Below, one piece after another: positions 738 to 29,571 of a DNA stretch of 30,000 bases. Below the pieces are notes generated by a model, which was not told the origin of the DNA, searched no databases, and worked only from the letters and a program-made list of their open reading frames with translations. Both the position numbers and the translations under genes were made by a program. Position 1 is the first letter of the stretch. Every line of letters begins with the position of its first letter. Source of the DNA: Cereibacter sphaeroides (lineage in GTDB: Bacteria > Pseudomonadota > Alphaproteobacteria > Rhodobacterales > Rhodobacteraceae); assembly GCA_003243455.1 (NCBI GenBank), contig QFQS01000013.1, forward strand, positions 2,348 through 32,347, given 5' to 3'.

Positions 738-741
738 GAGA

Positions 742-764
742 GGGGCCTTGCGGCCCCTTTTTTT
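742..764. terminator. Bidirectional intrinsic terminator between the convergent lysis and Ig-like genes
   Basis: GGGGCC-ttgc-GGCCCC hairpin (742-757) followed by T7 (758-764). The minus-strand side is followed by CTCTCTCATT. The stop codon of the Ig-like gene lies inside the T tract. Confidence 0.7.
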
Positions 765-3113: not shown

Positions 3114-3144
3114 TTCGTTTTCCTCGCTGGTTGGTGTGAGAAAG

Positions 3145-3173
3145 AATATAACAAAGGATAAATGGGGCCGCAA
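3145..3173 (-). promoter_or_regulatory. Putative sigma70-type promoter for the small-gene sub-operon
   Basis: The minus strand reads TTGCGG-17 nt-TATATT. The -10/leader contains the 15-mer TATTCTTTCTCACAC (3134-3148), which recurs at 27273-27287. Confidence 0.4.
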
Positions 3174-3968: not shown

Positions 3969-3969
3969 G

Positions 3970-4554: not shown

Positions 4555-4567
4555 CTTTGAGTCTCCC

Positions 4568-5269
4568 TTAAATCAGGCTTTTGCCTGCGTACATCATTTC
4601 GGTAAGCGTTACGTATTCCGTCTTGATCTCGCCACGCTTGCGGGGCTTGATCAGGAATAAGACGGACGACTTCGGATTTTTGCCGCCAGGCTCCCCGGTC
4701 ACGGCATCCACAAACGCCACGCGCCCGGACGTCTCGCCGTCGCTGGTGATATGGACGATCACGGAGGCATGATCCAGCGCTTTCTTAAACCAGGCCGTGG
4801 AGGCGTCGGAGTTGACGAGGAGGACCGTCGAGACGCTGCGCGTCTTTGCCTGCTCGATCGCTTTGGTCACAAACGGCATCGGCTCCGCGTATGGTGGGTT
4901 ACACCATGCCAGCCCGTTCTCCGCTCCCCATTGCACATCGTCCCGGAGCGCGTTCGTCTCCTCGTCCAGATAGCAGGCGCACAGGGCGTTAATCTTCTCG
5001 GCGGCCACGTCGATCCCAAACTCGCCGAAACGCTTACGCGCCCAGGCGAAAAGCCACTCCGGCGTCCGCCACTTCTGGCGCACTTTGTCCGGCGTCTTGC
5101 TGCCCTTGAAACGGCGACCGCTCACGCGGTTCTCGTCGTCGGCCATGATCTCGTTAGTCGCTTTCTGGCCGATGGCCGCGAGCTGGGTCATAACGCCGTG
5201 GGCCACGCCATGCTCCGCGCCTGCCTGCTCCAGCATTTCGATCGTGCTCTTGTCGTTCTCGTCTTTCAT
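4568..5269 (-). CDS. Phage Dam-family DNA N6-adenine methyltransferase
   Basis: 233 aa. It has WRTPEWLF..., the catalytic NPPY motif (WCNPPYAEP) and the ...RVAF... layout typical of the phage 'Dam' N6-A MTase family. An AAAGGA RBS is present. Confidence 0.85.
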   Translation of the reverse strand: MKDENDKSTIEMLEQAGAEHGVAHGVMTQLAAIGQKATNEIMADDENRVSGRRFKGSKTPDKVRQKWRTPEWLFAWARKRFGEFGIDVAAEKINALCACYLDEETNALRDDVQWGAENGLAWCNPPYAEPMPFVTKAIEQAKTRSVSTVLLVNSDASTAWFKKALDHASVIVHITSDGETSGRVAFVDAVTGEPGGKNPKSSVLFLIKPRKRGEIKTEYVTLTEMMYAGKSLI

Positions 5270-8876: not shown

Positions 8877-9923
8877 ATGGAACTACAAACAAACGGCCTG
8901 ATCCCTGAGCTGCCGACAATGGAAGTTTACGGATCGATGTTTATCGACGCCCGCGCGGCGGAGGACCTGAGTAACGAAGCCTATCACGAGGACGAGATCT
9001 ATATTACCGGGTCGAGCCTCTGGACCATTTTTAGCCAGTGTCCGGCGGCGTGGCGTTTCCAGAAAGCACAGGAGGACAAGGCCAAAAAACTTAACTCCGC
9101 CCAGAAGCCGCTCACGTTCGGGACCACTTCCCACACGATGTTACTTGAGCCGGACCGCTTCCAGCGTGAATTTTTCCGCCTGCCTAACCCGGACGACTTC
9201 CCGGAGCTGATTACCTCGATCGCCAAAATGCAAGCGTGGTTAAAAGAGCGCGGCCAGAAGGGCTACTCCAACAAAACGGCGGAGGAGCTGATCGCAATGT
9301 GCCGCCAGATCCAGCAACCGGACGAAGTGCTAAACATCTGGCACGAGATCGAGGCAAACGCCATCAAAGAGGCGAACGGTCGCGAGATCGTCCCGGCGAA
9401 GGACTGGGACCGCGTTCACTCTATGCGCGACGTGCTGCTGGCTAACCACAATTACCGCCGGATCATCGAGACGGGGATCCCGGAGCTGTCCATCTTCTGC
9501 ATTATCGACGGCGTTCCCGTTAAGGTGCGCCTGGACCGTGTGACGGACCTCGGCGAGATCATCGACTACAAGACCACGCAAAGCGCGGAGCCGGAGCGCT
9601 TCGGGCGTCTGGCTCACGATCTGGGCTACTGGTGCAAGATGGCGTTACAGCATGACTGCTTCCAGCTCTGCTACCAGCAAAACCCGACCGGGACGAAGTT
9701 ACTTGTACAGGAGAAGGACGAGCCGTGGCTGGCGCTCATGAATCGCCTTACGCCTGAGCAATTGATGATCGGGCGCGGCCAGTACAAGACGGCGCTCCAG
9801 CTCTTTAAACAGTGCCGCGATCTGGATATCTGGCCCGCCTACGCGAACGGCCAGGAGGAGATCGACCTCCGCACTCCGATTTATTTACAGCAACGTTACA
9901 AAGAATATTTTAAGGAGATCTAA
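8877..9923 (+). CDS. PD-(D/E)XK recombination exonuclease (RecE/exonuclease VIII C-terminal-domain-like)
   Basis: 348 aa. VRLDRVTDLGEIIDYKTTQS gives the D...(D/E)xK nuclease motif. It lies immediately upstream of the ERF annealase and SSB. Confidence 0.75.
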   Translation: MELQTNGLIPELPTMEVYGSMFIDARAAEDLSNEAYHEDEIYITGSSLWTIFSQCPAAWRFQKAQEDKAKKLNSAQKPLTFGTTSHTMLLEPDRFQREFFRLPNPDDFPELITSIAKMQAWLKERGQKGYSNKTAEELIAMCRQIQQPDEVLNIWHEIEANAIKEANGREIVPAKDWDRVHSMRDVLLANHNYRRIIETGIPELSIFCIIDGVPVKVRLDRVTDLGEIIDYKTTQSAEPERFGRLAHDLGYWCKMALQHDCFQLCYQQNPTGTKLLVQEKDEPWLALMNRLTPEQLMIGRGQYKTALQLFKQCRDLDIWPAYANGQEEIDLRTPIYLQQRYKEYFKEI

Positions 9924-10649
9924 ATGGAAAACATCATTCAGTTTTCGGCCACTCGTGGCGAGTTTATGAAAGCGTTTTTTGCTGCCCGGAAGAACATCGG
10001 CACGATCTCCAAAACGCGCAAAAACGACCACTTAAAATCGACTTACGCTAACCTGTCGGACTACCTGGACGCCATCGACTCCGCGATCGAGGAGCAAGGC
10101 TTGATGGTGATCCAGTCTCCTGGCGCGTTCACCGCTGCGGGCGATATGCCGATGGAAACCAGGATCGAGCATGTCGAATCTGGCGAGTTTATGGTGGCGC
10201 TCATGGAGATCCACGTCGATCGCAAAAATGCCCAGGGCGACGGCTCCGCGATTTCCTACGCCCGCCGCTACCACATCGGCGCGCTGTTCGGCCTGACTGC
10301 CGACGACGACGACGGCCACGGCGCTAAACGCAAGTTTGCCGACTACAAAAAAGAGTTTGACCTGATCGAAGATATTACCGAACTGAAAAAAGAGGCCCGC
10401 GTGGCGTTCATGTACCTGAAAGGCCAGGAGACGGAGCAAAACCTGATCCACGAGTACGTCGCGAAACGCGAAGCCAAAGCGGCGGCCTCTACTGCGGTCG
10501 GCTTCAATCCGGCGGCCCCGGTTGCTCGTCGTGGTCAGAAGCCGCAAAATGCGCAAGCCACGGTACAGGGGCAGACGCCGGAGCCGGAAGCGAAAGAGGC
10601 CCCCGCTCCGGTACAGGACGACAAAAAACCGAATCTTGAGGACTTCTAA
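9924..10649 (+). CDS. ERF-family single-strand annealing protein
   Basis: 241 aa. It has an ERF-like N-terminal core ([14 protein letters not shown]..., SYARRY...GL) and a low-complexity acidic/Pro-rich tail. An AAGGAG RBS is present. Confidence 0.75.
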
Positions 10650-10651
10650 AC

Positions 10652-11200
10652 ATGGCATCACGCGGCGTAAATAAGGTGATTCTGGTCGGCAATCTGGGAC
10701 AGGATCCCGAAGTAAGATATATGCCGTCGGGCGGGGCGGTCGCGAACATCACGATCGCCACCTCTGAGTCCTGGCGCGATAAGCAGACCGGGGAGCAAAA
10801 AGAACAAACGGAATGGCATCGCGTGGTTCTGTTCGGCAAGCTGGCGGAGATCGCCGGGGAGTACCTCAAAAAAGGCTCACAGGTCTACATTGAGGGCCAG
10901 TTACGGACGCGCAAATGGACAGACCAGCAAGGCGTCGAGAAGTACACGACGGAGGTCGTCGTGAACGTTGGCGGCACTATGCAAATGCTGGGTAGCCGGG
11001 GCGGGAATGATGGCGGCCAGTCTGGGGGGAACGGTGGCGGGCGTCAGTATTCCGGCCAGACCTCCGGCTGGAATGGCAATTCTCGCAATTCTCCGGGCAG
11101 TGGCGGGGCGCAAACGCAAAAAGGCGGGGGTAGTAGCCAAAATGCCGGACAAGGCGCTGGAGAGCCTCCTATGGACTTCGACGACGATATCCCGTTTTAA
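10652..11200 (+). CDS. ssb: Single-stranded DNA-binding protein
   Basis: 182 aa. [42 protein letters not shown]... is nearly identical to E. coli SSB over the OB fold. It has a Gly-rich linker and the C-terminal [11 protein letters not shown] tip. Confidence 0.95.
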
Positions 11201-12195: not shown

Positions 12196-12212
12196 ACCGG
12201 AATCGAGAGACG

Positions 12213-12241
12213 AGAAAGGGGCCATTACGGCCCCTTTTTTT
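12213..12241. terminator. Bidirectional intrinsic terminator between the early-right operon and the tailspike gene
   Basis: AGAAA-GGGGCC-attac-GGCCCC-TTTTTTT. The tailspike stop codon lies in the T tract. The element is nearly the same as the one at 742-764. Confidence 0.75.
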
Positions 12242-14591
12242 ATAACGGCGGGAAAGTGGAGATCTGTTTCCACATCCTGATTTTAGTCCCCTCCGGGACG
12301 GGGTTCTGGATGGGGTCGGCAATATCGACAACTATCGGCTTGCCCGTATCGTCCGGCGGCGTCTGGTACGGCGGACGGACGACCGTCGTAACGAGATCAG
12401 CGCCACCAGCCCCACCCTGCGGAATGACGATCCGCGTACCGGGGGACAGCATCGTGGTATAAAGCCACGGCGATCCACTGCTTACCCCGTTAGGCGTCAG
12501 GAATTGCACGATCTGGCGAGCGCCTACGGCTGCGGCGTGGATCTTGGCCCGGTCGTCCTTCGGGAAGTATGCGCCCCACTCCGTAACGATGTACGGCTTA
12601 AGGTTCACGATCCCCCCAGGACCATTAGCCGGGTCGTTGCTGCCATAGTCGTAAATCCAGACCACATCACCGCGATCAAACTCACGTCCGCACGGGAAGA
12701 AATTGCCGTATCCGCCGTGGCTGGTGATTTCCGGGAAAAACTGTTTCCCGACGTTCCCCAGGAGCTGGCCCAGCGAGCCGTCCAGGTTGACGTACATCCG
12801 GGCCTCGACGTTACAGTTAATCATGTTGATATTGCTGTAACGGCATTTGCTCCACGCCTGTTTTGCCGGGTTAAGGCTGTTAACGTTCATCATGTTAAGC
12901 ACAGACTTGGTGCGGATATACTGGCCGCTGGAAGTCGTACCGCCTGCGGAGTCGTCGCCCACGGCGTCCAGCTCCCAGAAATTAACGTTAATCATGTCGA
13001 GCTGAGTCGCCACGCCGAAGATCGTCAGGCGATAACAGTCGATATTTTCCAGCTTAACGCGGTTGTCGTGCGGCGCACGGTTCACGCCTGCGGTCGGATC
13101 GCCGGGGTCGGCTGCAACCGGGCAGTAAACGCGGCCCGTTTTGGTGCGCACGTTGCGGATCGTATAGTTGCGCGGAGATGACAGACGCGGCGGCCCCCAT
13201 TCCATATGGATAATGCGGAGGTCGTGGACGTCGGTCGAGGAGTTGGTGACAGGCTCCCCGGTCACGCCATCGATCAGGAAGTCCTTACAGCCGGACGTAT
13301 AGATCCCGGCGGTGGTGATACCAGTCCCCACAGACTTGTTTACGTTCGGGTTAACGGTCACATTCTCGATCGAGAAGTCGCGGCCCATTTCAACGTGAAT
13401 ACACTGTTTACAGTCATTCACGAGGACGTTACGGATCGTAAAGTTGCGCGCGTAGTTCTCGTCAGGCAGATCCCAGCCGTAAGGGCCTTTGCCCGCGATA
13501 CCAATCCCCAGGCCCCAGTTAGAGGCGAAGTTGCCGGGGTTAATCCCGTCGATGTTGTCGAGGAGAATATTTTCGATAACGCAACCATTTTCAAAGCATT
13601 GATGGACCACGTTAAGCTCGATCCCGTCGCCCTGCATGTTGACGAAAGCGAGGTTGCGGAAGATACCGCGCGACATAAACGCATTCCCGCCCTGGTGAAT
13701 GATGCCGTTATATCCATTGGTGAATAAACATCCGTCGATCTCGATCGTTCCCCAGATCTGCGGGCCGCCTGATTGTACGCCCTGGATGTTGATATGGCTG
13801 TTATTGCTGCCGCCGGGGATCCCGTCGTACCAGCAATCGAACATCCTCACGTCGCCGCCGTCATGGCGCATACGGTGGCCGTTACGGCCATTGACGCCGC
13901 GTAGGGTGGTATTCTGACACCACATCGAACGACCGCGCCACGTACCGCCGATAACCTCACAATTCACGAAGCGGGGATCGTTGCCAGTCAGCGTCCAGTC
14001 GCCGCCAAAAATGCGAATATTGGAGGCGGTCAGGATCCCGTTAGTGGTCCCTTTCCAGCCGTCCGCCCGGACGTCGAGGCCGTTCGCGCTGGCGTAGTCA
14101 AACATGGCCTGTAAAGCTGCCGTTACAGTTGCGTAAGGTGCTTTGCCGACGAAGTTCCACGGCGTCACGTAGCCGTTTAGCTGCTCCTGCACGTTGCCGA
14201 CGGGCGTCCCGACGTACTTCGCCCCGTTCTGGGACAGAAGCAAATTCCACATCTGGACGGGATCATATTTAAAGAGATTGGAAAAGGTGAAGATCACGAC
14301 GTCGTTTTGGTCTGCGACGACCATAGACGACTCAATTTTGGTGATCAGCTTGACCACTTGACCATTCCAGACCGGGAAGCCTGCGACGTTCGTCCGCACG
14401 GGTTGCGGGATAGGCGTCAGGGTCCCGTCCTCGTTCTCGACGTAGACCTGGACCTGGTTCGCCGGGTTAGTGGGATCCGTGTCAGCCTTTCCCGCGTAGA
14501 TCTTCCCGTTCGCCAGCGCGGCGAAACGGTCGTTGCGAAAGAAAGGTTGCGACGGCATTCCCAGATTGGAAAAGACCTCAAGATCTGCCAT
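12240..14591 (-). CDS. Tailspike: P22 gp9-like N-terminal head-binding domain plus a right-handed beta-helix receptor-binding/depolymerase body
   Basis: 783 aa. The N-terminus FAALANGKIYAGKADTDPTNPANQVQVYVENEDGTLTPIPQPVRTNVAGFPVWNGQVVKLIT matches P22 gp9 [62 protein letters not shown] (from memory). The remainder is rich in beta-helix-like N/G/I/V repeats. Confidence 0.9.
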   Translation of the reverse strand: MADLEVFSNLGMPSQPFFRNDRFAALANGKIYAGKADTDPTNPANQVQVYVENEDGTLTPIPQPVRTNVAGFPVWNGQVVKLITKIESSMVVADQNDVVIFTFSNLFKYDPVQMWNLLLSQNGAKYVGTPVGNVQEQLNGYVTPWNFVGKAPYATVTAALQAMFDYASANGLDVRADGWKGTTNGILTASNIRIFGGDWTLTGNDPRFVNCEVIGGTWRGRSMWCQNTTLRGVNGRNGHRMRHDGGDVRMFDCWYDGIPGGSNNSHINIQGVQSGGPQIWGTIEIDGCLFTNGYNGIIHQGGNAFMSRGIFRNLAFVNMQGDGIELNVVHQCFENGCVIENILLDNIDGINPGNFASNWGLGIGIAGKGPYGWDLPDENYARNFTIRNVLVNDCKQCIHVEMGRDFSIENVTVNPNVNKSVGTGITTAGIYTSGCKDFLIDGVTGEPVTNSSTDVHDLRIIHMEWGPPRLSSPRNYTIRNVRTKTGRVYCPVAADPGDPTAGVNRAPHDNRVKLENIDCYRLTIFGVATQLDMINVNFWELDAVGDDSAGGTTSSGQYIRTKSVLNMMNVNSLNPAKQAWSKCRYSNINMINCNVEARMYVNLDGSLGQLLGNVGKQFFPEITSHGGYGNFFPCGREFDRGDVVWIYDYGSNDPANGPGGIVNLKPYIVTEWGAYFPKDDRAKIHAAAVGARQIVQFLTPNGVSSGSPWLYTTMLSPGTRIVIPQGGAGGADLVTTVVRPPYQTPPDDTGKPIVVDIADPIQNPVPEGTKIRMWKQISTFPPL

Positions 14592-22066: not shown

Positions 22067-22522
22067 TTAGTTGGCCGTGTCGTCGTCGTAAAAGCGGCTA
22101 TGCGCCCAGGTCGATTGATTCCCCGCCCCGGTCAGCATGTCGTTACGGCGTTTGAGCGTCGGCACTTCGTAGAATGCCACCTTAATGTCGTCCCATTTCT
22201 CCTTAAGGAGCGCCCGGACGTCTGCGGGGAGTTCCATCTGGTTATCGATCAGCATCCTTTGTGCCATCTTGAGCGCGATCGCCTCCAGCGTCCACAGCTC
22301 CAGACCTGAGTCCTCGTTACCATCGGGGATCCCGTCGGAGTTGGTGGTGAAGATGTACGGAAAATTCAGGTTATCCTTGATACACTCCGCCATAAAAGCC
22401 TCTAAATCAGTCAGCCCGTCAACGACGGACTGCTGATCGGCAATTAGGAGGGTTGCAGTCGAGGACAGGCCCGCACGGCGTAACGCCTGGTTAACGATCC
22501 TGATCTTCTGCAACGTCGCCAT
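22067..22522 (-). CDS. Head-to-tail adaptor (P22 gp4-like)
   Basis: 151 aa. QALRRAGLSSTATLL...QSVVDGLTDLEAFMAEC parallels P22 gp4 AALRKLGVASDATLT...QDAVDDLEAMMAEW (from memory). The junction with the upstream gene is TAATG. Confidence 0.75.
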   Translation of the reverse strand: MATLQKIRIVNQALRRAGLSSTATLLIADQQSVVDGLTDLEAFMAECIKDNLNFPYIFTTNSDGIPDGNEDSGLELWTLEAIALKMAQRMLIDNQMELPADVRALLKEKWDDIKVAFYEVPTLKRRNDMLTGAGNQSTWAHSRFYDDDTAN

Positions 22523-23070
22523 TATTTTTTCCCTTTCGCCTTAGTATCCACTTTCTGGCCGTCTACTTTCTGGCCGTCTTTTTTGCCGTCGTCCGCTTTG
22601 GCGTCGTCCTTCGGCTCGTCTTTCTTCGGCTCCACTTTCACGCCGTCCGGCTGTTCAGAAGCGACGATCGTCTCCCCTTCGGTGTGGACCTGATCGCCCA
22701 CCAGTTTCTCGTCCTCCGGGGTCGGTGCTGCGGCTGCGGGGACGACCTGAGCCTGGCCCTCTGCCACCTGCACGGCGTCCAGTTTAAGGCGTTGCTCCTC
22801 GATCTCCTGCTCCGCCTGGGTGGATTTCTGTTCGCGGCTGGCGCGCTCGGCTTCCTTCTGCTTCGCCTCCTCGATCGCTTCGTCCAGGATGTGGATCTTG
22901 TTCGGGTGATCCACCCAGAGGCCGGACTCCAGACGCTTTTCGGCTTCCAGCGCCGGGAAAATAGCATAGTGGACGAGGTGCGGACCGCAACGGACGGCAG
23001 TCAGGCGGATCGCTTCGGTGATGATGTTCGGGCGGGTGTAGATCATTTGTTCGTAGGACATTGGAGACAC
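22522..23070 (-). CDS. Hypothetical protein with a globular N-domain, a charged helical linker and a Lys-rich repeat tail
   Basis: 182 aa. The C-terminus is ...KKDEPKDDAKADDGKKDGQKVDGQKVDTKAKGKK. A GAGGAG RBS is present. It lies between the coat terminator and the gp4-like gene. Confidence 0.7.
   Translation of the reverse strand: MSPMSYEQMIYTRPNIITEAIRLTAVRCGPHLVHYAIFPALEAEKRLESGLWVDHPNKIHILDEAIEEAKQKEAERASREQKSTQAEQEIEEQRLKLDAVQVAEGQAQVVPAAAAPTPEDEKLVGDQVHTEGETIVASEQPDGVKVEPKKDEPKDDAKADDGKKDGQKVDGQKVDTKAKGKK
22551..22580 (-). repeat. 2 x 15-nt tandem repeat inside the CDS, encoding (GQKVD)x2
   Basis: CTTTCTGGCCGTCTA / CTTTCTGGCCGTCTT on the + strand. Confidence 0.8.
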
Positions 23071-23103
23071 TCCTCTGGTTAGTTAACGGGACAAGTATAA
23101 GCG

Positions 23104-23130
23104 AAAAAAAAGGGGCCACAAAGGCCCCCT
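23104..23130 (-). terminator. Strong intrinsic terminator immediately after the coat gene
   Basis: The minus strand reads GGGGCC-tttgt-GGCCCC followed by T8 (+ strand A8 at 23104-23111), ~20 nt after the coat stop. Confidence 0.8.
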
Positions 23131-23151
23131 TTCTCATATTGCCGCGCCAGC

Positions 23152-24414
23152 TTACGCGGGCTGCTTCGGCAGTAACAGCCCCACATATTCCGGGACCAGT
23201 ACGGACACGCCGTAAAGCGTGGTAAAACGAGCCGTACACACGCCCGCGATGTGGTTGAAGTCCCAGGACATGATCAGGGTAGCGCCGTTCTTCGTGCGGC
23301 TACGCATGACTTTCGGCCCCATGTCGGACGGGAATGCCAGGTTGCCGAACATGAGTTCTACGGAGCCGTCGGCCCATGCCAGGTTTCCGTTAGCGGCCAC
23401 TTTGTTGATCACGGTGATAGCCGCGCCGCTTGCTGCGTTGGCGTCAACGTTAGCATACGGACGAGACGGCAGATCCGCGTTATTGACCGGGAGGATCTGC
23501 GGGGTGATCGTGATGTTGTTGCCGGAAACGTCCAGGACGCGGAACGTCTGGAGCTGGTCGGTCGTGTCCTTGCTGATCATATGGACGGAGTGAACGCCCG
23601 CGATCGTGAACGCGTCGCCCGCTTTCAGACCGTGACCAGCGGAAACGGCGATGATGCCCTGGCGGTTATCGATCGGGACGTCGTTCGCGTTTTTGGACTG
23701 GACTTTGTGCGCCGGGGCAGCGGTCAGGGTGATCGCGCCAGTCGGGCCAGCGCCTACGCGCGGAGCCAGATCGACCTTGTAAGCGTCAAAGCTCGCAATG
23801 TCCGGGATTTTCGCCTTTTCGAAAGCGCTCTGGTTGATGCCTGCGGAGTACGCACGGCCCGCCAGCTCGCCCGCGATATCTTTGTAAGAGAACGGCTCTA
23901 CAAAGGCGCGGCGAGGGACGCCCATCGGGATCCCGATAGAGGTCATTTTCGCGTCCAGGGTCGCGAAACCGTTCCACAGGTCTTTACCCAGCGTACCCGT
24001 AGAGTTATCGCCTACGGTTGCGACCTGAGTCGCGTAACGGCCTGCGGTGTTCGCCACGTCAGAATCGATCTGAGCGGCCAGACGCAGGGCAGCGGCGCGG
24101 CCCATTTCTTTCATGTACTCCGGGCGACGCATTTCGCGCGCGTCCAGTTTCCACAGGACGTTCTGAGGCTCTTTGAACGCAGACGGGACCAGACGCTCCA
24201 CGATATCGGTCGGCTGTTTGGAGGTCAGATCCAGACCTTCGACGATATCAGCGTGGTAACGCTGCGGGCGATAGATGACGTCACCTGCTTTCTGCATGGT
24301 TTCATCATCCGGGCGGTATTTGGAGGCGTTGTTAGACATTACGCAGGCAGCGTCAAAGCTCTCTACGTACTCCTCCCACATAATTTCTACTTGCTTTGCT
24401 ACCTGGTTAGCCAT
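23152..24414 (-). CDS. Major capsid (coat) protein, P22 gp5-like
   Basis: 420 aa from the ATG (MANQVAKQ), with GGAG 9 nt upstream; the start at 24429 in the track is a TTG. The size, position and C-terminus ...YGVSVLVPEYVGLLLPKQPA parallel P22 ...[21 protein letters not shown] (from memory). Confidence 0.9.
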   Translation of the reverse strand: MANQVAKQVEIMWEEYVESFDAACVMSNNASKYRPDDETMQKAGDVIYRPQRYHADIVEGLDLTSKQPTDIVERLVPSAFKEPQNVLWKLDAREMRRPEYMKEMGRAAALRLAAQIDSDVANTAGRYATQVATVGDNSTGTLGKDLWNGFATLDAKMTSIGIPMGVPRRAFVEPFSYKDIAGELAGRAYSAGINQSAFEKAKIPDIASFDAYKVDLAPRVGAGPTGAITLTAAPAHKVQSKNANDVPIDNRQGIIAVSAGHGLKAGDAFTIAGVHSVHMISKDTTDQLQTFRVLDVSGNNITITPQILPVNNADLPSRPYANVDANAASGAAITVINKVAANGNLAWADGSVELMFGNLAFPSDMGPKVMRSRTKNGATLIMSWDFNHIAGVCTARFTTLYGVSVLVPEYVGLLLPKQPA

Positions 24415-24447
24415 TCTCTGTTTCTCCAACCGATGGGCGAATAGGGT

Positions 24448-25419
24448 TTAGTCTTTCTTCTCTAACTTTGCTTTCAGCTCAAAATATGCGTCCCAGTTGC
24501 CGGAGCTGCGCGCTTTTTCCTTCGCTGCTTCGAGCTGGCCGATATTTTTAGCGCCGCCGTTGCCTTTCACCTGCGGAGCGCCGTTAACGTCTTTCTTCGC
24601 TCTCGGCGCGGTCCCTGCTCGGCGATCAATGTCGGCGATCAGGTAGCCCAGGCGAATATGGTCGTTATTATAGGCGTCCTCGATCTCTTGTCGCAATTTT
24701 TCGTTACGCGCAAGAGCCATAACGGTAAGGGTAGGCTTTTGGCTGTTCAGAAGCAAAGCGGCTTGCAGCGGCTCCGGCAGGGACGACACGATCTCCTCTG
24801 CCTGCTCATAGCCTGCGAATTTCTTCACGGCCACGGCGCGCTCCTGCTTGTACACTTCGCCGCGCTCCTGGATACGCGTCTGGAATTGCTCGGCCTTAGC
24901 CTGCTGGGTTTTCTGGTGAGCTTCGGCCTCGGCCTTTTGCTCATACCATTTGTCCATCGCCTCGGCCAGCTTGCCCTCGTCCCAGTCGATCCCCTCGTCG
25001 CCTAATTGCGGCTTAGGCGGCAGATTGTCGAGACTGGTCGCGGTCTTGTGTTCGGTCTGGGTGGATTTCTGTTTGAGCTGGCGGGACTGCTCGCGGAGCT
25101 GCGCGCGTAATTTCTTCACCAGCTCGGAGTCGTTCGCGCCGTCCTCTACCTCGTCAGGATCCGCCAGGGGCTGGCCGTCGAAGGTAAACTCCTCGCCCTC
25201 GTCCTCGCCGTTCGGATCGTCGGTGGTGGTGCGCTGGCGCTCCGGGTCGTCGTCGTTGTCGTTCGGATCACCTTCGCCGCGCTCGCCATTGTCGCCCGGA
25301 TCGGAGTCGTCGGTGGTGGTGTCTGCGGTCTGTTCAGCCGCTCCGCCGCCAGCGTCGCCGCCCTGAGTGCCGTCGTCAAAGGCTGCGTAGTATTTTAACC
25401 ATGCGTTACGAAATTTCAT
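24448..25419 (-). CDS. Scaffolding protein
   Basis: 323 aa. It is highly charged, with an acidic Gly/Asp-rich N-terminal third, long helices and a basic C-terminal helix-turn-helix-like end. It lies directly upstream of the coat gene, as P22 gene 8 does. Confidence 0.8.
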   Translation of the reverse strand: MKFRNAWLKYYAAFDDGTQGGDAGGGAAEQTADTTTDDSDPGDNGERGEGDPNDNDDDPERQRTTTDDPNGEDEGEEFTFDGQPLADPDEVEDGANDSELVKKLRAQLREQSRQLKQKSTQTEHKTATSLDNLPPKPQLGDEGIDWDEGKLAEAMDKWYEQKAEAEAHQKTQQAKAEQFQTRIQERGEVYKQERAVAVKKFAGYEQAEEIVSSLPEPLQAALLLNSQKPTLTVMALARNEKLRQEIEDAYNNDHIRLGYLIADIDRRAGTAPRAKKDVNGAPQVKGNGGAKNIGQLEAAKEKARSSGNWDAYFELKAKLEKKD

Positions 25420-25476
25420 TGTAGATCCCCGTTTTGTTGCATACGCGATGTATTTCGCCCATCGGTGGCGGGGATA

Positions 25477-25506
25477 AGTGTAAGAGAAGTTTTACATCAT
25501 ATGCAA
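25477..25506 (-). promoter_or_regulatory. Weak candidate promoter ahead of scaffold and coat
   Basis: The minus strand reads TTGCAT-18 nt-TACACT in the 127-nt gap. It is flanked by the direct repeat GGTGGCGGG (25464-25472 and 25538-25546, + strand). Confidence 0.25.
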
Positions 25507-25546
25507 GGGGGAAAGGTTTAAGGCCGATCCCCCCAGAGGTGGCGGG

Positions 25547-25813
25547 CTATTTCGTGGCGGCTTTCACGAGGCATTGAGACAGATAGAGCGCCTCGTGGTG
25601 CGGCGGGACCGAAGCGGGGATCACGTAGTACAGCGCGACGTTAGGCCCCGTGTTCGCGTGGATCATTTCGCTGGCGACTATCCGCCACTTTTCGCCGTCC
25701 GGCCCGGTCAGGATGCCGTCGAGGTCGTGGAGTTCTTCCTTGACCTGCGCGATCCGGTTTAACGTTGTCGGTCCCTTCCCTGGGAACGCGAGATAGTGAT
25801 GGACGGTTTTCAA
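25547..25813 (-). CDS. Hypothetical protein (88 aa), cassette gene d
   Basis: The TTG start overlaps the upstream TGA (TTGA). It has strong G/C third-position bias like neighbouring genes. I recognise no motif. Confidence 0.55.
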   Translation of the reverse strand: MKTVHHYLAFPGKGPTTLNRIAQVKEELHDLDGILTGPDGEKWRIVASEMIHANTGPNVALYYVIPASVPPHHEALYLSQCLVKAATK

Positions 25814-26280
25814 AATGGTATGTCCAGCGGCTTGTCGTTGTTGGCCGGAGGAACGATCTCGGCGTCCTCCACGTCCTCCGCTTTGCGCGGGTTCACTTCG
25901 CGGGCTGCGTCCGCTGCGGCCACAAAATCGCCCTCCAGCGGCCCCTTGTAGGTCAGTTGTTTAATGCTTGCGATATCTGCGAGGAGCTTCGACTCTGCCA
26001 CTACAAAGTCGGCGCGGAGTTTCTGGAGTCCGGCTTCCATGATCGGGAGGCTGATCTCTGCCTGCTCCTCGGCGGTCGGCATGGTGTAATCAATATCGAT
26101 CTCGATCTCTTTTAACAGGACGTAAGCCGCATTTTTGCCGCCTGAATTAATATGCTCCTGGACGCCCCAGATCGCGCCGTAATCGTAACTTTCCACGGAC
26201 ACGGATCCGCGCTTGTCGCCGACCTGGCTACCTTCGGCCACGCAAAGGCAAACGTACATTGTTTTTTTGATAGTTGGCAT
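25810..26280 (-). CDS. Hypothetical acidic protein (156 aa), cassette gene c
   Basis: ATG start with an AGAGGA RBS. It has no TM segment and no recognised motif. Confidence 0.7.
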   Translation of the reverse strand: MPTIKKTMYVCLCVAEGSQVGDKRGSVSVESYDYGAIWGVQEHINSGGKNAAYVLLKEIEIDIDYTMPTAEEQAEISLPIMEAGLQKLRADFVVAESKLLADIASIKQLTYKGPLEGDFVAAADAAREVNPRKAEDVEDAEIVPPANNDKPLDIPF

Positions 26281-26304
26281 TGTCTCTAATCCTCTTTGGG
26301 GTGG

Positions 26305-26322
26305 GGCGGGACGATGCCCGCC
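26305..26322 (-). other. GC stem-loop between cassette genes b and c, with no U tract
   Basis: GGCGGG-acgatg-CCCGCC. Confidence 0.4.
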
Positions 26323-26329
26323 GCCGGGG

Positions 26330-26746
26330 TTATTTGTTGCGAGCGCCGATCATGCCCTGCCACATGAAAACGACGGTATCAGATAACAGCGCTTTCACCT
26401 CGTCCTCGCCCATCTGCTCATAAAGCGAATCAAGCGCGCCGGGGATCTGCTCCCATAGTGCCTTTTGACCTTCCTCCACCTGCGCGTCCGTCGGCTGGAG
26501 CTGGACCTCGATCGGGGAGGGTTCAGTGTCGCCGGACTTTACGCGGGGGTGAGCGTTAGCCATGAGGGCCTCGGCTTGCATACCCACCAGCGCGAACGCC
26601 GTCGCCAGTGCCGCCAGATCCTCCTCGGTCGGCTGCTGGATAAACATCTGGGCCAGGCGGGCCTCCATAGTGCGGACCTTATCGCCGATCCCGTTCTCGT
26701 CGCACTCGGCCAGAATGATCGCGCGCGCTGCTTTTACTTGATCCAT
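26330..26746 (-). CDS. Hypothetical strongly acidic helical protein (138 aa), cassette gene b
   Basis: By my count it has roughly 23 Asp+Glu against 11 Lys+Arg. I recognise no motif. Confidence 0.7.
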   Translation of the reverse strand: MDQVKAARAIILAECDENGIGDKVRTMEARLAQMFIQQPTEEDLAALATAFALVGMQAEALMANAHPRVKSGDTEPSPIEVQLQPTDAQVEEGQKALWEQIPGALDSLYEQMGEDEVKALLSDTVVFMWQGMIGARNK

Positions 26747-26772
26747 TGTGTTCTCTCTCGTCGGTTAATGAT

Positions 26773-26790
26773 GCCCCGGCGGTCCGGGGC
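26773..26790 (-). other. GC stem-loop between cassette genes a and b, with no U tract
   Basis: GCCCCGG-cggt-CCGGGGC. Confidence 0.4.
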
Positions 26791-26797
26791 GGTCTGG

Positions 26798-27235
26798 TTA
26801 TGCGTTGCCCTGCGCCTGAGCTGCCAGGAGCTGGATAATCGGCTCCACGTCGGCCTCCGCCGCCGGGATAGGCAGGTCAACCACGCCGCGCGGCTCGCCT
26901 TTGGTAATGTGGAATTTCCAGATCGCCATCACGTCGTCCAGCGAGTAGCCCGCCAGGATCTCCTCGTGGATCTTCTGCGCGCCGTTGGTTTCGTTAAACT
27001 CCAGGACCTGATCAACGGTCGGCATCTGGTTCCCAAATTTCGCCATTGTGCGGGCCATAACGACCACGCCGACGCCACGGGACAGGAAGGTGTTACCCTG
27101 CTCACCGCCGGAAACCATCACGGCGATCTCCGGCTCGTCGGTGTTAGGGTGGTAGGCAAGGGCGAGGGTAACGAAGCCGCCGCGCGGAGTGACTTCGAAA
27201 ACGCGGGCTGCTGGGGTGGTGGTGATTTCTTTCAT
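26798..27235 (-). CDS. Hypothetical acidic protein (145 aa), cassette gene a
   Basis: ATG start with an AGAGGA RBS. The sequence looks mixed alpha/beta. I recognise no motif. Confidence 0.7.
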   Translation of the reverse strand: MKEITTTPAARVFEVTPRGGFVTLALAYHPNTDEPEIAVMVSGGEQGNTFLSRGVGVVVMARTMAKFGNQMPTVDQVLEFNETNGAQKIHEEILAGYSLDDVMAIWKFHITKGEPRGVVDLPIPAAEADVEPIIQLLAAQAQGNA

Positions 27236-27253
27236 GGTGTCCTCTCTCGGTTA

Positions 27254-27269
27254 ATCACGATAGCGTGAT
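27254..27269. promoter_or_regulatory. Perfect palindrome ATCACG-ATAG-CGTGAT, a candidate operator in the cassette leader
   Basis: A 6-bp inverted repeat with a 4-bp spacer lies between the putative -10 (27282-27287) and the RBS of cassette gene a. Its half-site equals the ATCACG(C) motif found in the early promoters. Confidence 0.45.
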
Positions 27270-27276
27270 GTTGTGT

Positions 27277-27305
27277 GAGAAAGAATAGCCCGGACGTACC
27301 GGGCT
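27277..27305 (-). terminator. Terminator-like hairpin directly after the portal gene
   Basis: The minus strand reads AGCCCGG-tacgt-CCGGGCT followed by ATTCTTTCTC. Confidence 0.5.
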
Positions 27306-27310
27306 GTAAA
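27282..27310 (-). promoter_or_regulatory. Putative promoter for the four-gene cassette, overlapping the portal terminator hairpin
   Basis: The minus strand reads TTTACA-17 nt-TATTCT. The -10 and leader 15-mer TATTCTTTCTCACAC (27273-27287) is identical to 3134-3148. Confidence 0.4.
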
Positions 27311-27336
27311 GTGTTTTTTTAATGGAATCGTTAAAT

Positions 27337-29571
27337 TTATTGCGCGGCACGTTCCAGGGTGCTGTCGGCCTGCTGCTGCGCCTGGCGCTCGGCCAGTTGC
27401 TGCGCTGCGCGGTCGCTCTGGATCTGGTGGCCCTGCCCGATGGATTTCAGGAACAAGTCGGCCTGTTTGTGCGCGTCCTGGCTCTGGGCGGTGACGTACT
27501 TCTGGAGGATAGCCACGGCGGCCATTAGCTGATCCTGCGGGATAGCTGCGGCCTCGGCCATCGTCTTGACGGTCTGCGCCTGCTTGAGCTGGCCGTCTGC
27601 CTGCGTCCCCTGCGCCTTGAGCTGCAATTCTAAGCGCTTGTTGTCCTGCTCCATAACGGCGGCCTTGCCCTGGTCTGCCACGCCCTGCGCTGCGACCATC
27701 TGCGCGTCCGGCTGGTCCTGCTGGCTCTGCTGGGCCTGCGCTACCATCTGTTTTTCCTCGTCCGTCTGCGGCTTCACAATGCCGGAGAGTAAAAGCTGGT
27801 TGCGGGTGTACTCTTTGAAGTCCTGGAGGCCCTCGCCGTCCATGTTCGCAATGATCAGGCTCATGACGATCGTCGCGTTAGGGTCGCCCGGTTGCATGGT
27901 CGCTAACAGGTTAGTCAGGCTGCGGACGGTCTGCTGGCGTCGCGTCTGGGAGGACTCGCCGACGTCGGCAACAATTTCATATTTGCCGCGCTTGAGGTCG
28001 TTAATCGCGATCACTTCCTTCGTCTCGCGATCGACGACTTTCCCGGTCATTAACACGAGGTCGTCGCTCCCGTCCTCCTGCTGGATCCTCACGTAAGACT
28101 CGGAGCCGTAAACCTTGCGAGCGGCGGACAGGTAGACGCGGCCACAATGGCGCAACGTCTTAGCCAGGTTGTCCATGTAGAGCGCGCCCTGGCCGTCCAT
28201 GCGGGCGAAAATAGCCTCCACGGTTTCGGTCGCCAGGTTAGACGGCAGCGCTTCGAGCTGGGAGGATCCGACAATCTGCTGGATAGTCGCCCCGGTGTAC
28301 TGGAGGACGGCAGCGAGCGCCGGAGAGAGCGGAGTCGCCGGAGTATAGCCCAGCGGTCCGGCCTGCTGGACGACCTCACCAGACGCATTACGGAGCGATT
28401 TAGCGGGCAGGTATGCGGGGCGCTTCGTGTTGCGATCCCCCCAGGCGTTGGCGAGATTCCCAGGGATCATGTCGATATCCATGATCGGGATGTTGTCGCC
28501 GCCTGCCTGCGCGGCCTGGTCGGCCATCATGGACACGATCAGGTTTTCAAGACGCTGGGCGTCCATCGCGAGCGTGGCGTGGCCCATCACGCGCTCCTGG
28601 TTGTCGATAAACGAGCGGCGCGCGTTGAAGATAAAGACCGGGATCCATTCGAACGGGATCAGCTTCGGCTCCTCGATCCACTCCCCGCCGGAAAACAGGC
28701 CGCAATAGACCTTACGACGTTTGACGCGGCGATCCTTGAGCTTTTTCCAGCCTGCGGCCTTAAGCTCGTCGAAAACCTGCTCCATGTCGTCCTCGTCGTA
28801 TACCTCCGTTTCCCCGGTGAGCGGGTTCTGGTAGGAGATCACGGTGGTGTCCTCGATCTTCACCTCATAGTAACGGGCGATATAAATCGCGTCTTTAGAG
28901 GCCCAGTCAAACCATTTGCCCGTGTTCAGCTCCATGAGGTCCTCCGGGGCCATCGCGTCCGGGTAACGCTCCTCGTACTTCTCCGGGGTCATGCTGAATA
29001 GCTCGGCCATCCACATAGCATCACTGCGATCGTACATTTTGGAGTCAGGATCGACAAAGAGGCACGAGGCCGGATCGTAGATCGGGTAAAAGACGATATG
29101 ACGCTCCTCATTGTCGGGATCAAATTCGTCCTCCAGCTCCGTGTCCATGCGAAACGCGCCCATCCCGCCGTCGATGCCGTCGCCGTAAGTGTTATCGACG
29201 GACTCCGGCCCGTTGCTCTCGTTGTAGTCGGCGCGGAATTTGCCGTTTAGCTTGTCGGCCAGCTCCTCGGATGCCTTTTCGTCCTTCGGACGGAATACCA
29301 CGGAGACACGGTTAAGGCGGTAATCGGTGATCAGGCGGTCGCACTCGCGGGCCACTTTGTTAAGTTCGAATCGAGGGTATTTCTCGAATCGTTCATCATC
29401 CATCGCAAAGCCGGAGTTAGTTGATCCTTCCCACTGCGCGCCCGGAATACGGACAAAGCGCTGGGTTTCGATCATTTTCTTGCGGCTTTGCTCCTCGCTG
29501 GCGATCGTCTGGCTCAGGCGCTTACGCGCCGTCTCATGCCAGTTCTGGGCCGATTTGGTGACTCGTGCCAT
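27337..29571 (-). CDS. Portal protein (P22 gp1-like, with a long C-terminal helical barrel)
   Basis: 744 aa. IARYYEVKIEDTTVISYQNPLTGETEVY...LKDRRVKRRKVY matches P22 [28 protein letters not shown]...IAERQIKRRRVY. The C-terminal GIVKPQTDEEKQMVAQAQQSQQDQPDAQMVAAQGV matches [36 protein letters not shown] (from memory). A GGAGA RBS is present. Confidence 0.95.
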   Translation of the reverse strand: MARVTKSAQNWHETARKRLSQTIASEEQSRKKMIETQRFVRIPGAQWEGSTNSGFAMDDERFEKYPRFELNKVARECDRLITDYRLNRVSVVFRPKDEKASEELADKLNGKFRADYNESNGPESVDNTYGDGIDGGMGAFRMDTELEDEFDPDNEERHIVFYPIYDPASCLFVDPDSKMYDRSDAMWMAELFSMTPEKYEERYPDAMAPEDLMELNTGKWFDWASKDAIYIARYYEVKIEDTTVISYQNPLTGETEVYDEDDMEQVFDELKAAGWKKLKDRRVKRRKVYCGLFSGGEWIEEPKLIPFEWIPVFIFNARRSFIDNQERVMGHATLAMDAQRLENLIVSMMADQAAQAGGDNIPIMDIDMIPGNLANAWGDRNTKRPAYLPAKSLRNASGEVVQQAGPLGYTPATPLSPALAAVLQYTGATIQQIVGSSQLEALPSNLATETVEAIFARMDGQGALYMDNLAKTLRHCGRVYLSAARKVYGSESYVRIQQEDGSDDLVLMTGKVVDRETKEVIAINDLKRGKYEIVADVGESSQTRRQQTVRSLTNLLATMQPGDPNATIVMSLIIANMDGEGLQDFKEYTRNQLLLSGIVKPQTDEEKQMVAQAQQSQQDQPDAQMVAAQGVADQGKAAVMEQDNKRLELQLKAQGTQADGQLKQAQTVKTMAEAAAIPQDQLMAAVAILQKYVTAQSQDAHKQADLFLKSIGQGHQIQSDRAAQQLAERQAQQQADSTLERAAQ

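What the first reader, a model, noticed from the sequence alone, without database searches (positions are those of the whole stretch)
25547..27310. Four acidic ORFan genes with an early-type promoter and palindromic operator, wedged between portal and scaffold genes
- **Synteny break:** The virion operon otherwise follows P22 gene order (TerL-portal-scaffold-coat-4-10-26-14-7-20-16-tailspike). In P22-type head modules the scaffold gene follows the portal gene directly.
- **The insert:** Here ~1.75 kb is inserted, encoding 145-, 138-, 156- and 88-aa proteins. By my residue counts the three larger proteins (145, 138 and 156 aa) are net acidic; I did not tally the 88-aa one. None has a TM segment or any motif I recognise. 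Third-position GC bias argues they are real genes.
- **Upstream control region:** The insert starts with a terminator-like hairpin right after the portal stop. That hairpin is overlapped by TTTACA-17-TATTCT and followed by a perfect palindrome, ATCACG-ATAG-CGTGAT.
- **Link to early genes:** The -10/leader 15-mer is identical to the one heading the small-gene early sub-operon at 3134-3148. The ATCACG motif otherwise occurs only in early-region promoters.
- **Between genes a-b and b-c:** GC-rich stem-loops without U tracts lie in the a-b and b-c gaps; genes c and d overlap (TTGA) with no intergenic space.
- **Inference:** This looks like an independently, possibly early, regulated accessory island embedded in a late structural operon. 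Candidate roles are anti-defence or DNA-mimic proteins (small and acidic) or capsid-internal proteins delivered with the DNA.
Basis: partly seen in the sequence, partly recalled or inferred. Interest (0 to 1): 0.78.

Follow-up and report, generated by a model that had tools for sequence, protein, structure and literature searches.

The report
Swappable accessory gene cassette between head genes
Between the portal and scaffold genes of this lytic P22-like phage sits a conserved slot holding swappable small genes of unknown function, apparently with their own promoter; one encodes a protein whose tail copies the docking tip of the bacterial DNA-binding protein SSB.

Summary
The window is a strain of Sortsnevirus IME279, 97-98% identical to Escherichia phage sortkaff, where these genes are annotated "hypothetical".

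**Confirmed:**
- Four real genes under purifying selection; three are acidic and d is neutral.
- The synteny break relative to P22, Sf6, Sf101 and APSE-1.
- The hairpin inside TTTACA-17-TATTCT, the palindrome, and the shared 15-mer.

**Refuted:** ATCACG is not confined to early promoters; it occurs 33 times in the window.

**What the locus is:** a mosaic cassette slot specific to lytic P22-like podoviruses (Sortsne-, Murray- and Skarprettervirus).
- At least eight unrelated gene families occur there in different combinations.
- d belongs to a superfamily present next to the scaffold gene in almost every relative.
- IME279 has deleted d, so d is dispensable.

**Regulation:**
- The promoter hexamers are conserved across lineages, and the spacer hairpin covaries.
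- The "operator" fits better as an RNA hairpin inside a leader-to-ribosome-binding-site stem.
- Nothing shows early timing.

**Protein function:**
- Proteins b and c gave no significant fold match; a and d were not modelled.
- No cassette protein matches any family of known function.
- Protein c has a beta domain, a long helix, and a disordered acidic tail ending in DIPF, the SSB C-terminal tip. Even remote homologues keep the acidic tail ending in Pro-Phe.
- This suggests a decoy or adaptor for SSB-binding proteins. That is inferred, not tested.

The parts
27337..29571 (-). Portal gene (upstream flank)
   Evidence: Pfam P22_portal E=4e-154, phrog_156.
27305..27310 (-). P1 -35-like hexamer TTTACA, preceded by an A-rich tract
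   Evidence: The equivalent is AAGACA in Murrayvirus, L020, L021 and Skarpretter, and TAAACA in L024.
27287..27305 (-). 7-bp GC hairpin AGCCCGG-5-CCGGGCT occupying the P1 spacer; terminator-like for portal transcripts
   Evidence: The stem keeps pairing through double changes: GCCCGC/GCGGGC in Lumpael, L020 and L021, and GCCCCA/TGGGGC in Skarpretter and L025.
27282..27287 (-). P1 -10-like hexamer TATTCT
   Evidence: GGGCTATTCTTT is exact in 17 loci. The hexamer is TATAGT in Skarpretter and L025 and TATTAT in L024, so T1, A2 and T6 are kept.
27273..27287 (-). 15-mer TATTCTTTCTCACAC shared with 3134-3148
   Evidence: The 14-mer TATTCTTTCTCACA occurs three times in sortkaff.
3134..3148 (-). Second copy of the 15-mer, between two genes of the leftward small-gene block, after a terminator hairpin
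   Evidence: It is conserved exactly in Kc237. Its leader also pairs with its own SD.
27240..27285 (-). 5'UTR RNA structure: leader UUCUUUCUC (27277-27285) pairs with the SD region GAGAGAGGA (27240-27248) and encloses the palindrome hairpin
   Evidence: MFE -28.3 kcal/mol for the 110-nt segment that also contains the spacer hairpin, z = -4.68, 0 of 200 shuffles fold as well. The same architecture occurs in L017, L013, Skarpretter and L025 with different sequence.
27254..27269 (-).
   Evidence: L017 has ATCACG-ATAA-CGTGAT and Skarpretter has TTCACG-ACAA-CGTGAA. It is absent in Murrayvirus and Kc237.
26798..27235 (-). Gene a, 145 aa, pI 4.7
   Evidence: Homologues only in Sortsnevirus-type genomes. 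dN/dS 0.29-0.55. No Pfam, PHROG, NCBIfam or PADLOC hit.
26773..26790 (-). a-b intergenic GC hairpin with no U tract, followed by the conserved linker ACCGACGAGAGAGA
   Evidence: The stem differs but still pairs in Sortsne and Kc237.
26330..26746 (-). Gene b, 138 aa, pI 4.3, all-alpha
   Evidence: phrog_35278, function unknown. 36 homologue clusters. AF2 pLDDT 77.5 with 7 helices. No PDB fold or sequence match.
26303..26325 (-). b-c intergenic GC hairpin
25810..26280 (-). Gene c, 156 aa, pI 4.45: beta domain (1-64), long helix (70-110), disordered acidic tail (111-156) ending in DIPF (codons 25813-25824)
   Evidence: AF2 pLDDT about 88 for residues 1-110 and below 50 for 111-150. The tail tip is kept in 17 of 21 aligned homologues and in remote ones. 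dN/dS 0.13. It always lies between portal and scaffold.
25547..25813 (-). Gene d, 88 aa, neutral; shortest member of a superfamily (88 to about 153 aa) sitting directly upstream of the scaffold gene
   Evidence: Deleted in IME279, leaving a 3' remnant.
25477..25506 (-). P2: promoter-like TTGCAT-18-TACACT upstream of the scaffold gene (downstream boundary of the cassette)
   Evidence: The hexamers are conserved while the spacers diverge across all lineages. Coordinates were checked.
25443..25466 (-). Conserved hairpin in the scaffold 5'UTR
   Evidence: 7 pairs with one compensatory change. It is also present in Sf101.
24448..25419 (-). Scaffold gene (downstream flank)
   Evidence: phrog_648, head scaffolding protein, E=1.2e-77.

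Best explanation
**What it is.** The 1.75-kb stretch is a cassette slot for accessory genes. The slot is a hallmark of the lytic P22-like podoviruses (Sortsnevirus, Murrayvirus, Skarprettervirus and metagenomic relatives). It is not an insertion peculiar to this genome.

**Layout.** The slot lies between the portal stop codon and a conserved promoter plus 5'UTR that belongs to the scaffold gene. It is filled by independently exchangeable modules. Each module is a ribosome-binding site, an ORF, a stop codon and a GC hairpin.

**Transcription (inferred).** It is probably transcribed from its own sigma-70-type promoter, P1. The P1 spacer is a hairpin that also acts as a terminator or attenuator for transcripts coming from the portal gene. 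A pyrimidine leader lies between the -10 hexamer and the expected start site and can pair with the ribosome-binding site of the first gene. Read-through transcripts would therefore be poorly translated, while P1-initiated transcripts would be open. Timing is unknown.

**Products.** The proteins are dispensable, lineage-variable cytoplasmic proteins and not core virion parts. The most constrained one, c, is inferred to be an oligomeric helical protein that displays a disordered acidic tail ending in DIPF, the tip of SSB. Through that tail it would dock onto proteins that normally bind SSB: host ExoI, RecQ, PriA, the chi subunit and RecO, or the phage's own recombination proteins. It would act as a decoy or an adaptor.

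**Shown versus inferred.** Shown: gene reality, mosaicism, dispensability of d, conservation of the regulatory elements, and conservation of the tail. Inferred: promoter activity, the translational gate, and the partner of the c tail.
For: **Mosaic slot**
- Window and sortkaff carry a-b-c-d; IME279 carries a-x-b-c; Sortsne, L013 and L017 carry a, b and a longer d-type gene.
- Kc237 carries y, b and a longer d-type gene; Murrayviruses carry y, (z), b, (c) and d; Skarpretter, L020, L021 and L025 carry c, a long d-type gene and sometimes x.
- The five families compared by hhalign (a, b, c, d, y) are unrelated to each other.

**Real genes**
- dN/dS is 0.13-0.55.
- GC content equals that of the flanks.

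**Dispensability**
- d is deleted in the isolate IME279, leaving a remnant.
- c is absent from Kc237, Sortsne and Lumpael despite similar scaffold and coat proteins.

**P1**
- The hexamers and spacing are conserved, with -10 variants TATTCT, TATAGT and TATTAT.
- The spacer hairpin covaries.

**Separate unit**
- P2 and the scaffold 5'UTR are conserved.
- A strong terminator follows the coat gene, so the virion block is not one simple operon.

**Leader-to-SD pairing**
-.

**c tail**
- DIPF or a close variant is kept in 17 of 21 homologues.
- Remote homologues end in DVPF, DFPF and DSPF after acidic runs.
- The tail is predicted to be disordered.
- The phage SSB ends in DFDDDIPF.
- Only SSB and c end in DIPF among 364 open segments in sortkaff.
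- The SSB-Ct hexapeptide DDDIPF is the known docking site for partner proteins (PMC5872125, PMC10164576, seen).
Against: - There are no transcript data. The -35 is weak (AAGACA) in half of the lineages, and consensus promoter matches are not enriched over shuffles.
- The hairpin followed by UAUUCUUUCUC also fits a plain intrinsic terminator.
- The leader-to-SD stem is absent in Murrayvirus, Kc237 and Sortsne.
- The strict position inside the head-gene block, and the near-universal d-type gene next to the scaffold gene, could instead mean a role in head assembly.
- A subclade (IME_EC2, sortsyn) has c without the tail, so the tail is not essential to whatever the core of c does.
- No binding partner has been tested.
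- A C-terminal acidic tail ending in Phe could serve another interaction.
Confidence: 0.55

Rival explanations
1. The genes encode head-assembly helpers or minor or internal virion proteins. They would be expressed simply as part of late head-gene transcription. The hairpin after the portal gene would be only a terminator, attenuator or RNA-stability element that sets the portal-to-scaffold expression ratio.
For: - The genes have the same orientation as the head genes and are embedded among them.
- c and d-type genes have kept this exact position in phages whose portal proteins are only 61% identical.
- A d-type gene lies directly upstream of the scaffold gene in nearly all relatives.
- The hairpin followed by a U-rich run is called terminator-like.
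- In other phage types, such as SPP1 gp7, minor head proteins are encoded between portal and scaffold (own knowledge).
- Kc237 labels two of these genes 'internal virion protein'.
Against: - Distribution is patchy and unrelated to scaffold or coat type.
- d is deleted in viable IME279.
- P22, Sf6, Sf101 and APSE-1 build the same kind of virion with no such genes.
- The Kc237 label has no support in its paper or in PHROGs.
- In Skarpretter the hairpin is followed by UAUAGUCUCC, which is a poor U tract but a good -10.
- A separate conserved promoter-like element precedes the scaffold gene.
Confidence: 0.2
2. The island would be transcribed early from a promoter of the early class and repressed through the palindromic DNA operator. 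It would encode anti-defence or DNA-mimic proteins.
For: - The proteins are small, acidic and variable.
- A 15-mer is shared with a site in the leftward small-gene block.
- ATCACG or CGTGAT lies within 60 nt of all three copies of the 14-mer in sortkaff.
- The palindrome half-sites are kept in L017 and, in symmetric variant form, in Skarpretter. That pattern would also fit a dimeric DNA-binding protein.
Against: - ATCACG is common, with 33 copies in the window.
- The palindrome is missing in Murrayvirus and Kc237, which keep P1.
- It is nested in a covarying RNA stem with the SD.
- At site 2 the best promoter (TTGCGG-17-TGtTATATT) is offset by 2 nt from the 15-mer register.
- No evidence exists for the timing of either site.
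- The AF2 models of b and c resemble no solved structure in the PDB.
- Composition is indistinguishable from the backbone.
Confidence: 0.15
3. The genes are selfish or neutral passenger genes kept only because the slot tolerates insertions. They would have no role for the phage.
For: - Content turns over rapidly.
- Individual members are dispensable.
- No functional annotation exists.
Against: - All four genes are under purifying selection. c has dN/dS 0.13 with saturated dS against L021.
- The terminal motif of the c tail is conserved in remote homologues.
- Regulatory elements around the slot are conserved.
Confidence: 0.07

Closest known systems
Phage 'morons' and accessory gene slots in lambdoid and P22-like genomes (own knowledge: Juhala et al. 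2000; Hendrix et al.)
   Same: - Extra genes sit between two genes that are adjacent in relatives.
- They are flanked by a promoter-like and a terminator-like element.
- Content is variable and members are dispensable.
   Different: - This is a multi-gene mosaic with one near-universal member.
- Base composition is identical to the backbone.
- The slot sits inside the head-gene block of lytic phages.
- The slot and its control elements are conserved across at least three genera.
Bacterial SSB C-terminal tip (SSB-Ct, DDDIPF) and its interactome (PMC5872125, PMC10164576)
   Same: Protein c has a disordered acidic C-terminal region ending in (D)-I/V/F-P-F-COOH, attached to a folded and probably oligomeric core.
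   Different: - c has no OB fold and no Pfam SSB match.
- It is encoded among head genes, not replication genes.
- The phage also has a normal SSB.
Bas52_0087, a phage SSB-like protein with an FDDDIPF tip that triggers DRT10 (bioRxiv 10.64898/2026.04.29.721553)
   Same: It is a phage-encoded protein carrying the SSB tip motif and is proposed to interfere with ExoI and ssDNA metabolism. Oligomerisation is implicated.
   Different: - Bas52_0087 has two predicted OB folds; c does not.
- There is no sequence relationship.
- No defence link has been shown for c.
T7 gp2.5 and gp4 acidic C-terminal tails ending in Phe (own knowledge)
   Same: An acidic, disordered C-terminus with a terminal aromatic residue is used as a docking peptide.
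   Different: - Those are replication proteins with known partners.
- The c tip copies the host-type IPF motif, not the T7 type.
Minor head proteins encoded between portal and scaffold or protease genes in other tailed phages (e.g. SPP1 gp7, Mu F-like; own knowledge)
   Same: Same genomic position.
   Different: - No homology.
- Presence is patchy.
- No evidence of packaging.

Membership tests
Phage moron / accessory cassette | Absent from the same junction in related genomes | tested here: met
   In P22, Sf6, Sf101 and APSE-1 portal and scaffold are adjacent. Content differs among close relatives.
Phage moron / accessory cassette | Own promoter upstream and terminator downstream | tested here: inconclusive
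   The promoter-like P1 is conserved. The downstream hairpin plus U run is clear in Murrayvirus but degenerate in the window. There are no transcript data.
Phage moron / accessory cassette | Base composition different from the surrounding genome | tested here: not met
   Cassette GC is 0.599 against portal 0.602, scaffold 0.594 and window 0.592.
SSB family (OB-fold ssDNA-binding proteins) | OB-fold DNA-binding core | tested here: not met
   The AF2 model of c is a beta hairpin domain plus a long helix. There is no Pfam SSB hit and no Foldseek match.
SSB family (OB-fold ssDNA-binding proteins) | Disordered linker and acidic tip ending in IPF | tested here: met
   The tip is identical to the last four residues of the phage SSB.
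SSB-Ct-mediated partner binding (function, not family) | Physical binding of the tail to SSB-interacting proteins | not testable with these tools
   Needs peptide binding assays or complex prediction.
DNA-mimic proteins (Ocr, ArdA, Gp5.9 type) | Fold and charge pattern imitating B-DNA; similarity to known mimics | tested here: inconclusive
   b and c are acidic, but their models have no significant PDB match. a and d were not modelled. Mimics are structurally diverse, so this cannot be excluded.
Known defence-system components (PADLOC) | Match to a PADLOC model | tested here: not met
   0 families at E up to 1 for a-d.
P22 virion proteins | Homologue present in the P22 or Sf6 virion gene set at this position | tested here: not met
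   P22 and Sf6 have no gene there. There are no Pfam P22-family hits for a-d.
Sigma-70 promoter | -35 and -10 hexamers with 16-18 nt spacing, conserved in relatives | tested here: met
   The match is 9 of 12. The hexamers are conserved while the spacer varies. Activity was not tested.
Intrinsic terminator | GC-rich hairpin followed directly by a U tract | tested here: inconclusive
   The scan calls it in the window. The U run is only UAUUCUUUCUC and is replaced by UAUAGUCUCC in Skarpretter.
DNA operator (palindrome bound by a dimeric repressor) | Inverted repeat conserved wherever the promoter is conserved | tested here: not met
   The repeat is absent in Murrayvirus and Kc237, which keep P1. 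Where present it sits inside a covarying RNA structure.

The most novel reading that the evidence does not exclude
Protein c founds a new class of phage proteins. It would be a non-OB, coiled-coil scaffold that displays copies of the SSB C-terminal tip to capture the host SSB interactome, for example ExoI/SbcB, RecQ, PriA and RecO. It could act as a decoy that protects phage DNA ends or recombination intermediates late in infection, or as a counter-measure to defence systems gated by SSB or ExoI. A second element would accompany it: a terminator-in-promoter coupled to an anti-Shine-Dalgarno leader, so that only cassette-initiated transcripts are translated.
Probability: 0.3. Interest if true: 0.72.

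Novelty: new variant of a known kind. Interest (0 to 1): 0.5.

Why it matters
- **A defined site for gene discovery.** The work turns a block of "hypothetical proteins" in an already sequenced phage group into a bounded, comparably regulated cassette slot. That slot is a practical place to look for new host-interaction genes in lytic P22-like phages.
- **A sharp, testable hypothesis.** Protein c suggests that a phage can display the SSB docking tip on an unrelated scaffold. If true, phages can tap or jam the whole SSB partner network without an SSB. This bears on recombination, replication restart, and defence systems that sense SSB or ExoI activity.
- **Compact regulatory designs.** The hairpin-in-promoter and the anti-SD leader would be a compact way to insulate an inserted operon. 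The scaffold 5'UTR hairpin, shared with temperate Sf101, may be the long-sought cis-element of scaffold autoregulation.

Tried and rejected
- **Library scans for a-d.** Pfam, PHROGs, NCBIfam and PADLOC gave only phrog_35278 (function unknown) for b.
- **Wider families.** Pfam, PHROG and PDB-profile searches on the broad d superfamily, and PHROG scans of the y, x and L024 g1 families, found nothing.
- **PDB profile searches for b and c.** Nothing significant.
- **Foldseek on the models.**
  - c against the PDB: best E 0.54.
  - b against the PDB: best E 5.4.
  - c against BFVD: only its Skarpretter homologue.
- **HMM profile of c against 1.84 billion representatives.** Only 6 clusters matched, so it is a small clade-restricted family.
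- **hhalign between families a, b, c, d and y.** No paralogy.
- **Rfam on 23000-27500.** No credible family.
- **Literature.** There are no virion proteomics or transcript data for Sortsne-, Murray- or Skarprettervirus. The IME_EC2 paper is not held.
- **Abandoned idea about P1.** I first thought P1 exists mainly to boost scaffold and coat expression. I dropped this as the main reading once a separate conserved promoter-like element was found just upstream of the scaffold gene.
- **Formal pair count for the leader-SD stem.** MAFFT put the Skarpretter stem out of register, so I relied on individual folds.


Full report
**Identity of the window.** The region is 98.4% identical over its full length to Escherichia phage sortkaff (MN850581) and 96.7% to Klebsiella phage IME279. 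The rest of the window matches sortkaff at 97.4%. The window is therefore a strain of Sortsnevirus IME279, a lytic podovirus with P22-type virion genes. In all public records the four genes are "hypothetical protein".

**Checking the observation.**
- The four minus-strand ORFs exist at the stated coordinates and sizes.
- Proteins a, b and c are acidic (net -8, -12, -12). Protein d is neutral, with pI 7.0.
- GC3 greatly exceeds GC2.
- There is no TM-like segment.
- dN/dS against relatives is 0.13-0.55, so these are real genes.
- The flanks are the portal gene (P22_portal, E=4e-154), the scaffold gene (phrog_648) and the coat gene.
- In P22 and Sf6 portal and scaffold are 13 nt apart. The gap is 90 nt in Sf101 and 50 nt in APSE-1, so the synteny break is real.
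- The hairpin, TTTACA-17-TATTCT, the palindrome and the shared 15-mer are all present.
- The statement that ATCACG is confined to early promoters is wrong: it has 33 occurrences.

**What the locus is.** I compared 13 distinct relatives: GenBank phages, IMG/VR contigs and Logan contigs.
- Every lytic relative has 1.2-1.9 kb between portal and scaffold, but with different contents:

| Genomes | Cassette content |
|---|---|
| window, sortkaff | a, b, c, d |
| IME279 | a, x, b, c |
| Sortsne, L013, L017 | a, b, longer d-type gene |
| Kc237 | y, b, longer d-type gene |
| Murrayviruses | y, sometimes z, b, sometimes c, d |
| Skarpretter, L020, L021, L025 | c, long d-type gene, sometimes x |

- At least eight families are involved, and the five compared with hhalign (a, b, c, d, y) show no relationship to each other.
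- d (88 aa) is the shortest member of a superfamily (88 to about 153 aa). That superfamily sits directly upstream of the scaffold gene in essentially all relatives.
- IME279 has lost d by a deletion that leaves the last dozen bases, so d is dispensable.
- c is always found in this slot. It is the most constrained gene: 75% identical to L021, where portal is 61% and scaffold 35% identical, with dN/dS 0.13.
- Cassette GC content equals that of the backbone.
- Each intergenic gap carries a GC hairpin about 10 nt after the stop codon with no U tract. The stems differ between relatives but still pair, and a conserved linker follows. This gives a modular structure that would favour exchange.

**Regulatory elements.** Directly after the portal stop, all Sortsne- and Murray-type genomes, L020 and L021 share the exact 12-mer GGGCTATTCTTT.
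- Across lineages the -35-like hexamer (TTTACA, AAGACA, TAAACA) and the -10-like hexamer (TATTCT; TATAGT in Skarpretter and L025; TATTAT in L024) keep a 17-18 nt spacing.
- The spacer hairpin changes by compensatory substitutions: GCCCGG/CCGGGC, GCCCGC/GCGGGC and GCCCCA/TGGGGC.
- The -10 variants keep T1, A2 and T6, and in Skarpretter the run after the hairpin is not U-rich. This favours a promoter that overlaps a terminator-like hairpin over a terminator alone.
- Consensus matches as such are not enriched over shuffles, and no transcript data exist.
- Downstream of d, a second promoter-like element (TTGCAT-18-TACACT) and a 5'UTR hairpin precede the scaffold gene. They are conserved in every lineage, with divergent spacers.
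- A strong terminator follows the coat gene.
- The cassette therefore looks like its own unit between two conserved control regions.

**The 'operator'.** Folded as RNA, the leader UUCUUUCUC (27277-27285) pairs with the Shine-Dalgarno region GAGAGAGGA of gene a, and the stem encloses the palindrome as a 6-bp hairpin.
- The 110-nt segment, which also contains the spacer hairpin, folds with z = -4.68.
- L017 and L013 keep this structure.
- Skarpretter and L025 have the same architecture with different sequence: CUCCUC/GAGGAG around UUCACG-N4-CGUGAA.
- L020 has the outer stem only. Murrayvirus, Kc237 and Sortsne lack it.
- Because P1 is kept where the palindrome is absent, an RNA role fits better than a DNA operator.
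- The anti-SD tract lies between the -10 and the expected start. Only read-through transcripts would carry it, which suggests a translational gate (inference).

**The link to 'early' genes.**
- The 15-mer is truly shared. The second site is conserved in Kc237, and a third copy of the 14-mer exists in sortkaff outside the window.
- At the second site the leader again pairs with its SD.
- However, the best promoter there (TTGCGG-17-TGtTATATT) is offset by 2 nt from the 15-mer register.
- The timing of neither site is known, so "early-type" is unsupported.

**The proteins.**
- No cassette protein matches a family of known function.
- b has 36 homologue clusters. It is all-helical (pLDDT 77.5) and has no structural match.
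- The Kc237 label "internal virion protein" for b and y has no basis in its paper or in PHROGs.
- c has 23 homologue clusters and only 6 representative clusters in 1.84 billion proteins.
- The c model has a beta domain (1-64), a long helix (70-110) and a disordered acidic tail (111-156). It has no fold match except its own Skarpretter homologue.

**The c tail.**
- The tail ends in DIPF. The tip is kept in 17 of 21 aligned homologues and in Skarpretter and L020.
- Remote homologues end in DVPF, DFPF and DSPF after acidic runs.
- A Murrayvirus subclade has lost the tail.
- The phage's own SSB ends in DFDDDIPF. Only SSB and c end in DIPF among 364 open segments of sortkaff.
- DDDIPF is the SSB tip that docks many genome-maintenance proteins (PMC5872125, PMC10164576).
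- A recent preprint links a phage SSB-like protein with this tip to ExoI and the DRT10 defence system.
- c lacks an OB fold, so it is not an SSB. It plausibly works like the SSB tail, as a decoy or adaptor. This is inference.

**Verdict.**
An accessory island, probably self-promoted, is supported. "Early", "operator" and "ORFan" are not.
- The locus is a new variant of a known kind (an accessory cassette or moron slot). It carries one specific and testable lead: the SSB-tip mimic on c.

Noticed in passing
window 25420-25510 (- strand): A promoter-like TTGCAT-18-TACACT and a 5'UTR hairpin (25443-25466, ACCGAUGG...CAUCGCGU) precede the scaffold gene. Both are conserved in every lytic relative and the hairpin also in temperate Sf101, with one compensatory change in L024. 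P22 and Sf6 lack any such gap. This is a candidate cis-element for scaffold autoregulation.
   Followed up: partly
window 10652-11200 (+) and 9924-10649 (+): The phage SSB ends in the canonical DFDDDIPF. The recombinase-like 241-aa protein just upstream ends in an acidic ...NLEDF.
   Followed up: partly
window 730-768, 12206-12244, 23100-23138: A family of near-identical bidirectional terminators (GGGGCC-loop-GGCCCC flanked by A and T runs). One lies directly after the coat gene, which implies the virion block is not a single simple operon.
   Followed up: no
L006 (sortkaff) 8280-8293, outside the window: A third copy of the 14-mer TATTCTTTCTCACA. Its reverse complement supplies a TTGTGA-17-TATAGT promoter-like site on the + strand with ATCACG in the spacer. 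All three copies have ATCACG or CGTGAT within 60 nt.
   Followed up: partly
window 22522-23070 (-): A 182-aa protein with a long Lys/Glu/Asp-rich C-terminal half lies between the coat gene and the gp4 homologue (phrog_28530, function unknown). P22 has no obvious counterpart.
   Followed up: no
L002/L016 (IME_EC2) about 4414-4839 / 9067-9492: The c homologue is annotated as only 312 bp, yet tblastn aligns residues 3-143. This may be a frameshift, a pseudogene or a mis-annotated start. This subclade also lacks the DIPF tail.
   Followed up: no
L005 (IME279) 3750-4022 and L020 9142-9411: The extra IME279 gene x is 64% identical to a cassette gene of the distant L020 lineage, showing that modules move between lineages within the same slot.
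   Followed up: partly
L017/L022 (IMGVR_UViG_2751185941_000002, 42,714 bp): A complete relative of this lytic phage is deposited as a contig of an Enterobacter bugandensis genome assembly (proteins P0045 and P0054). This could be a carried or contaminating phage.
   Followed up: no
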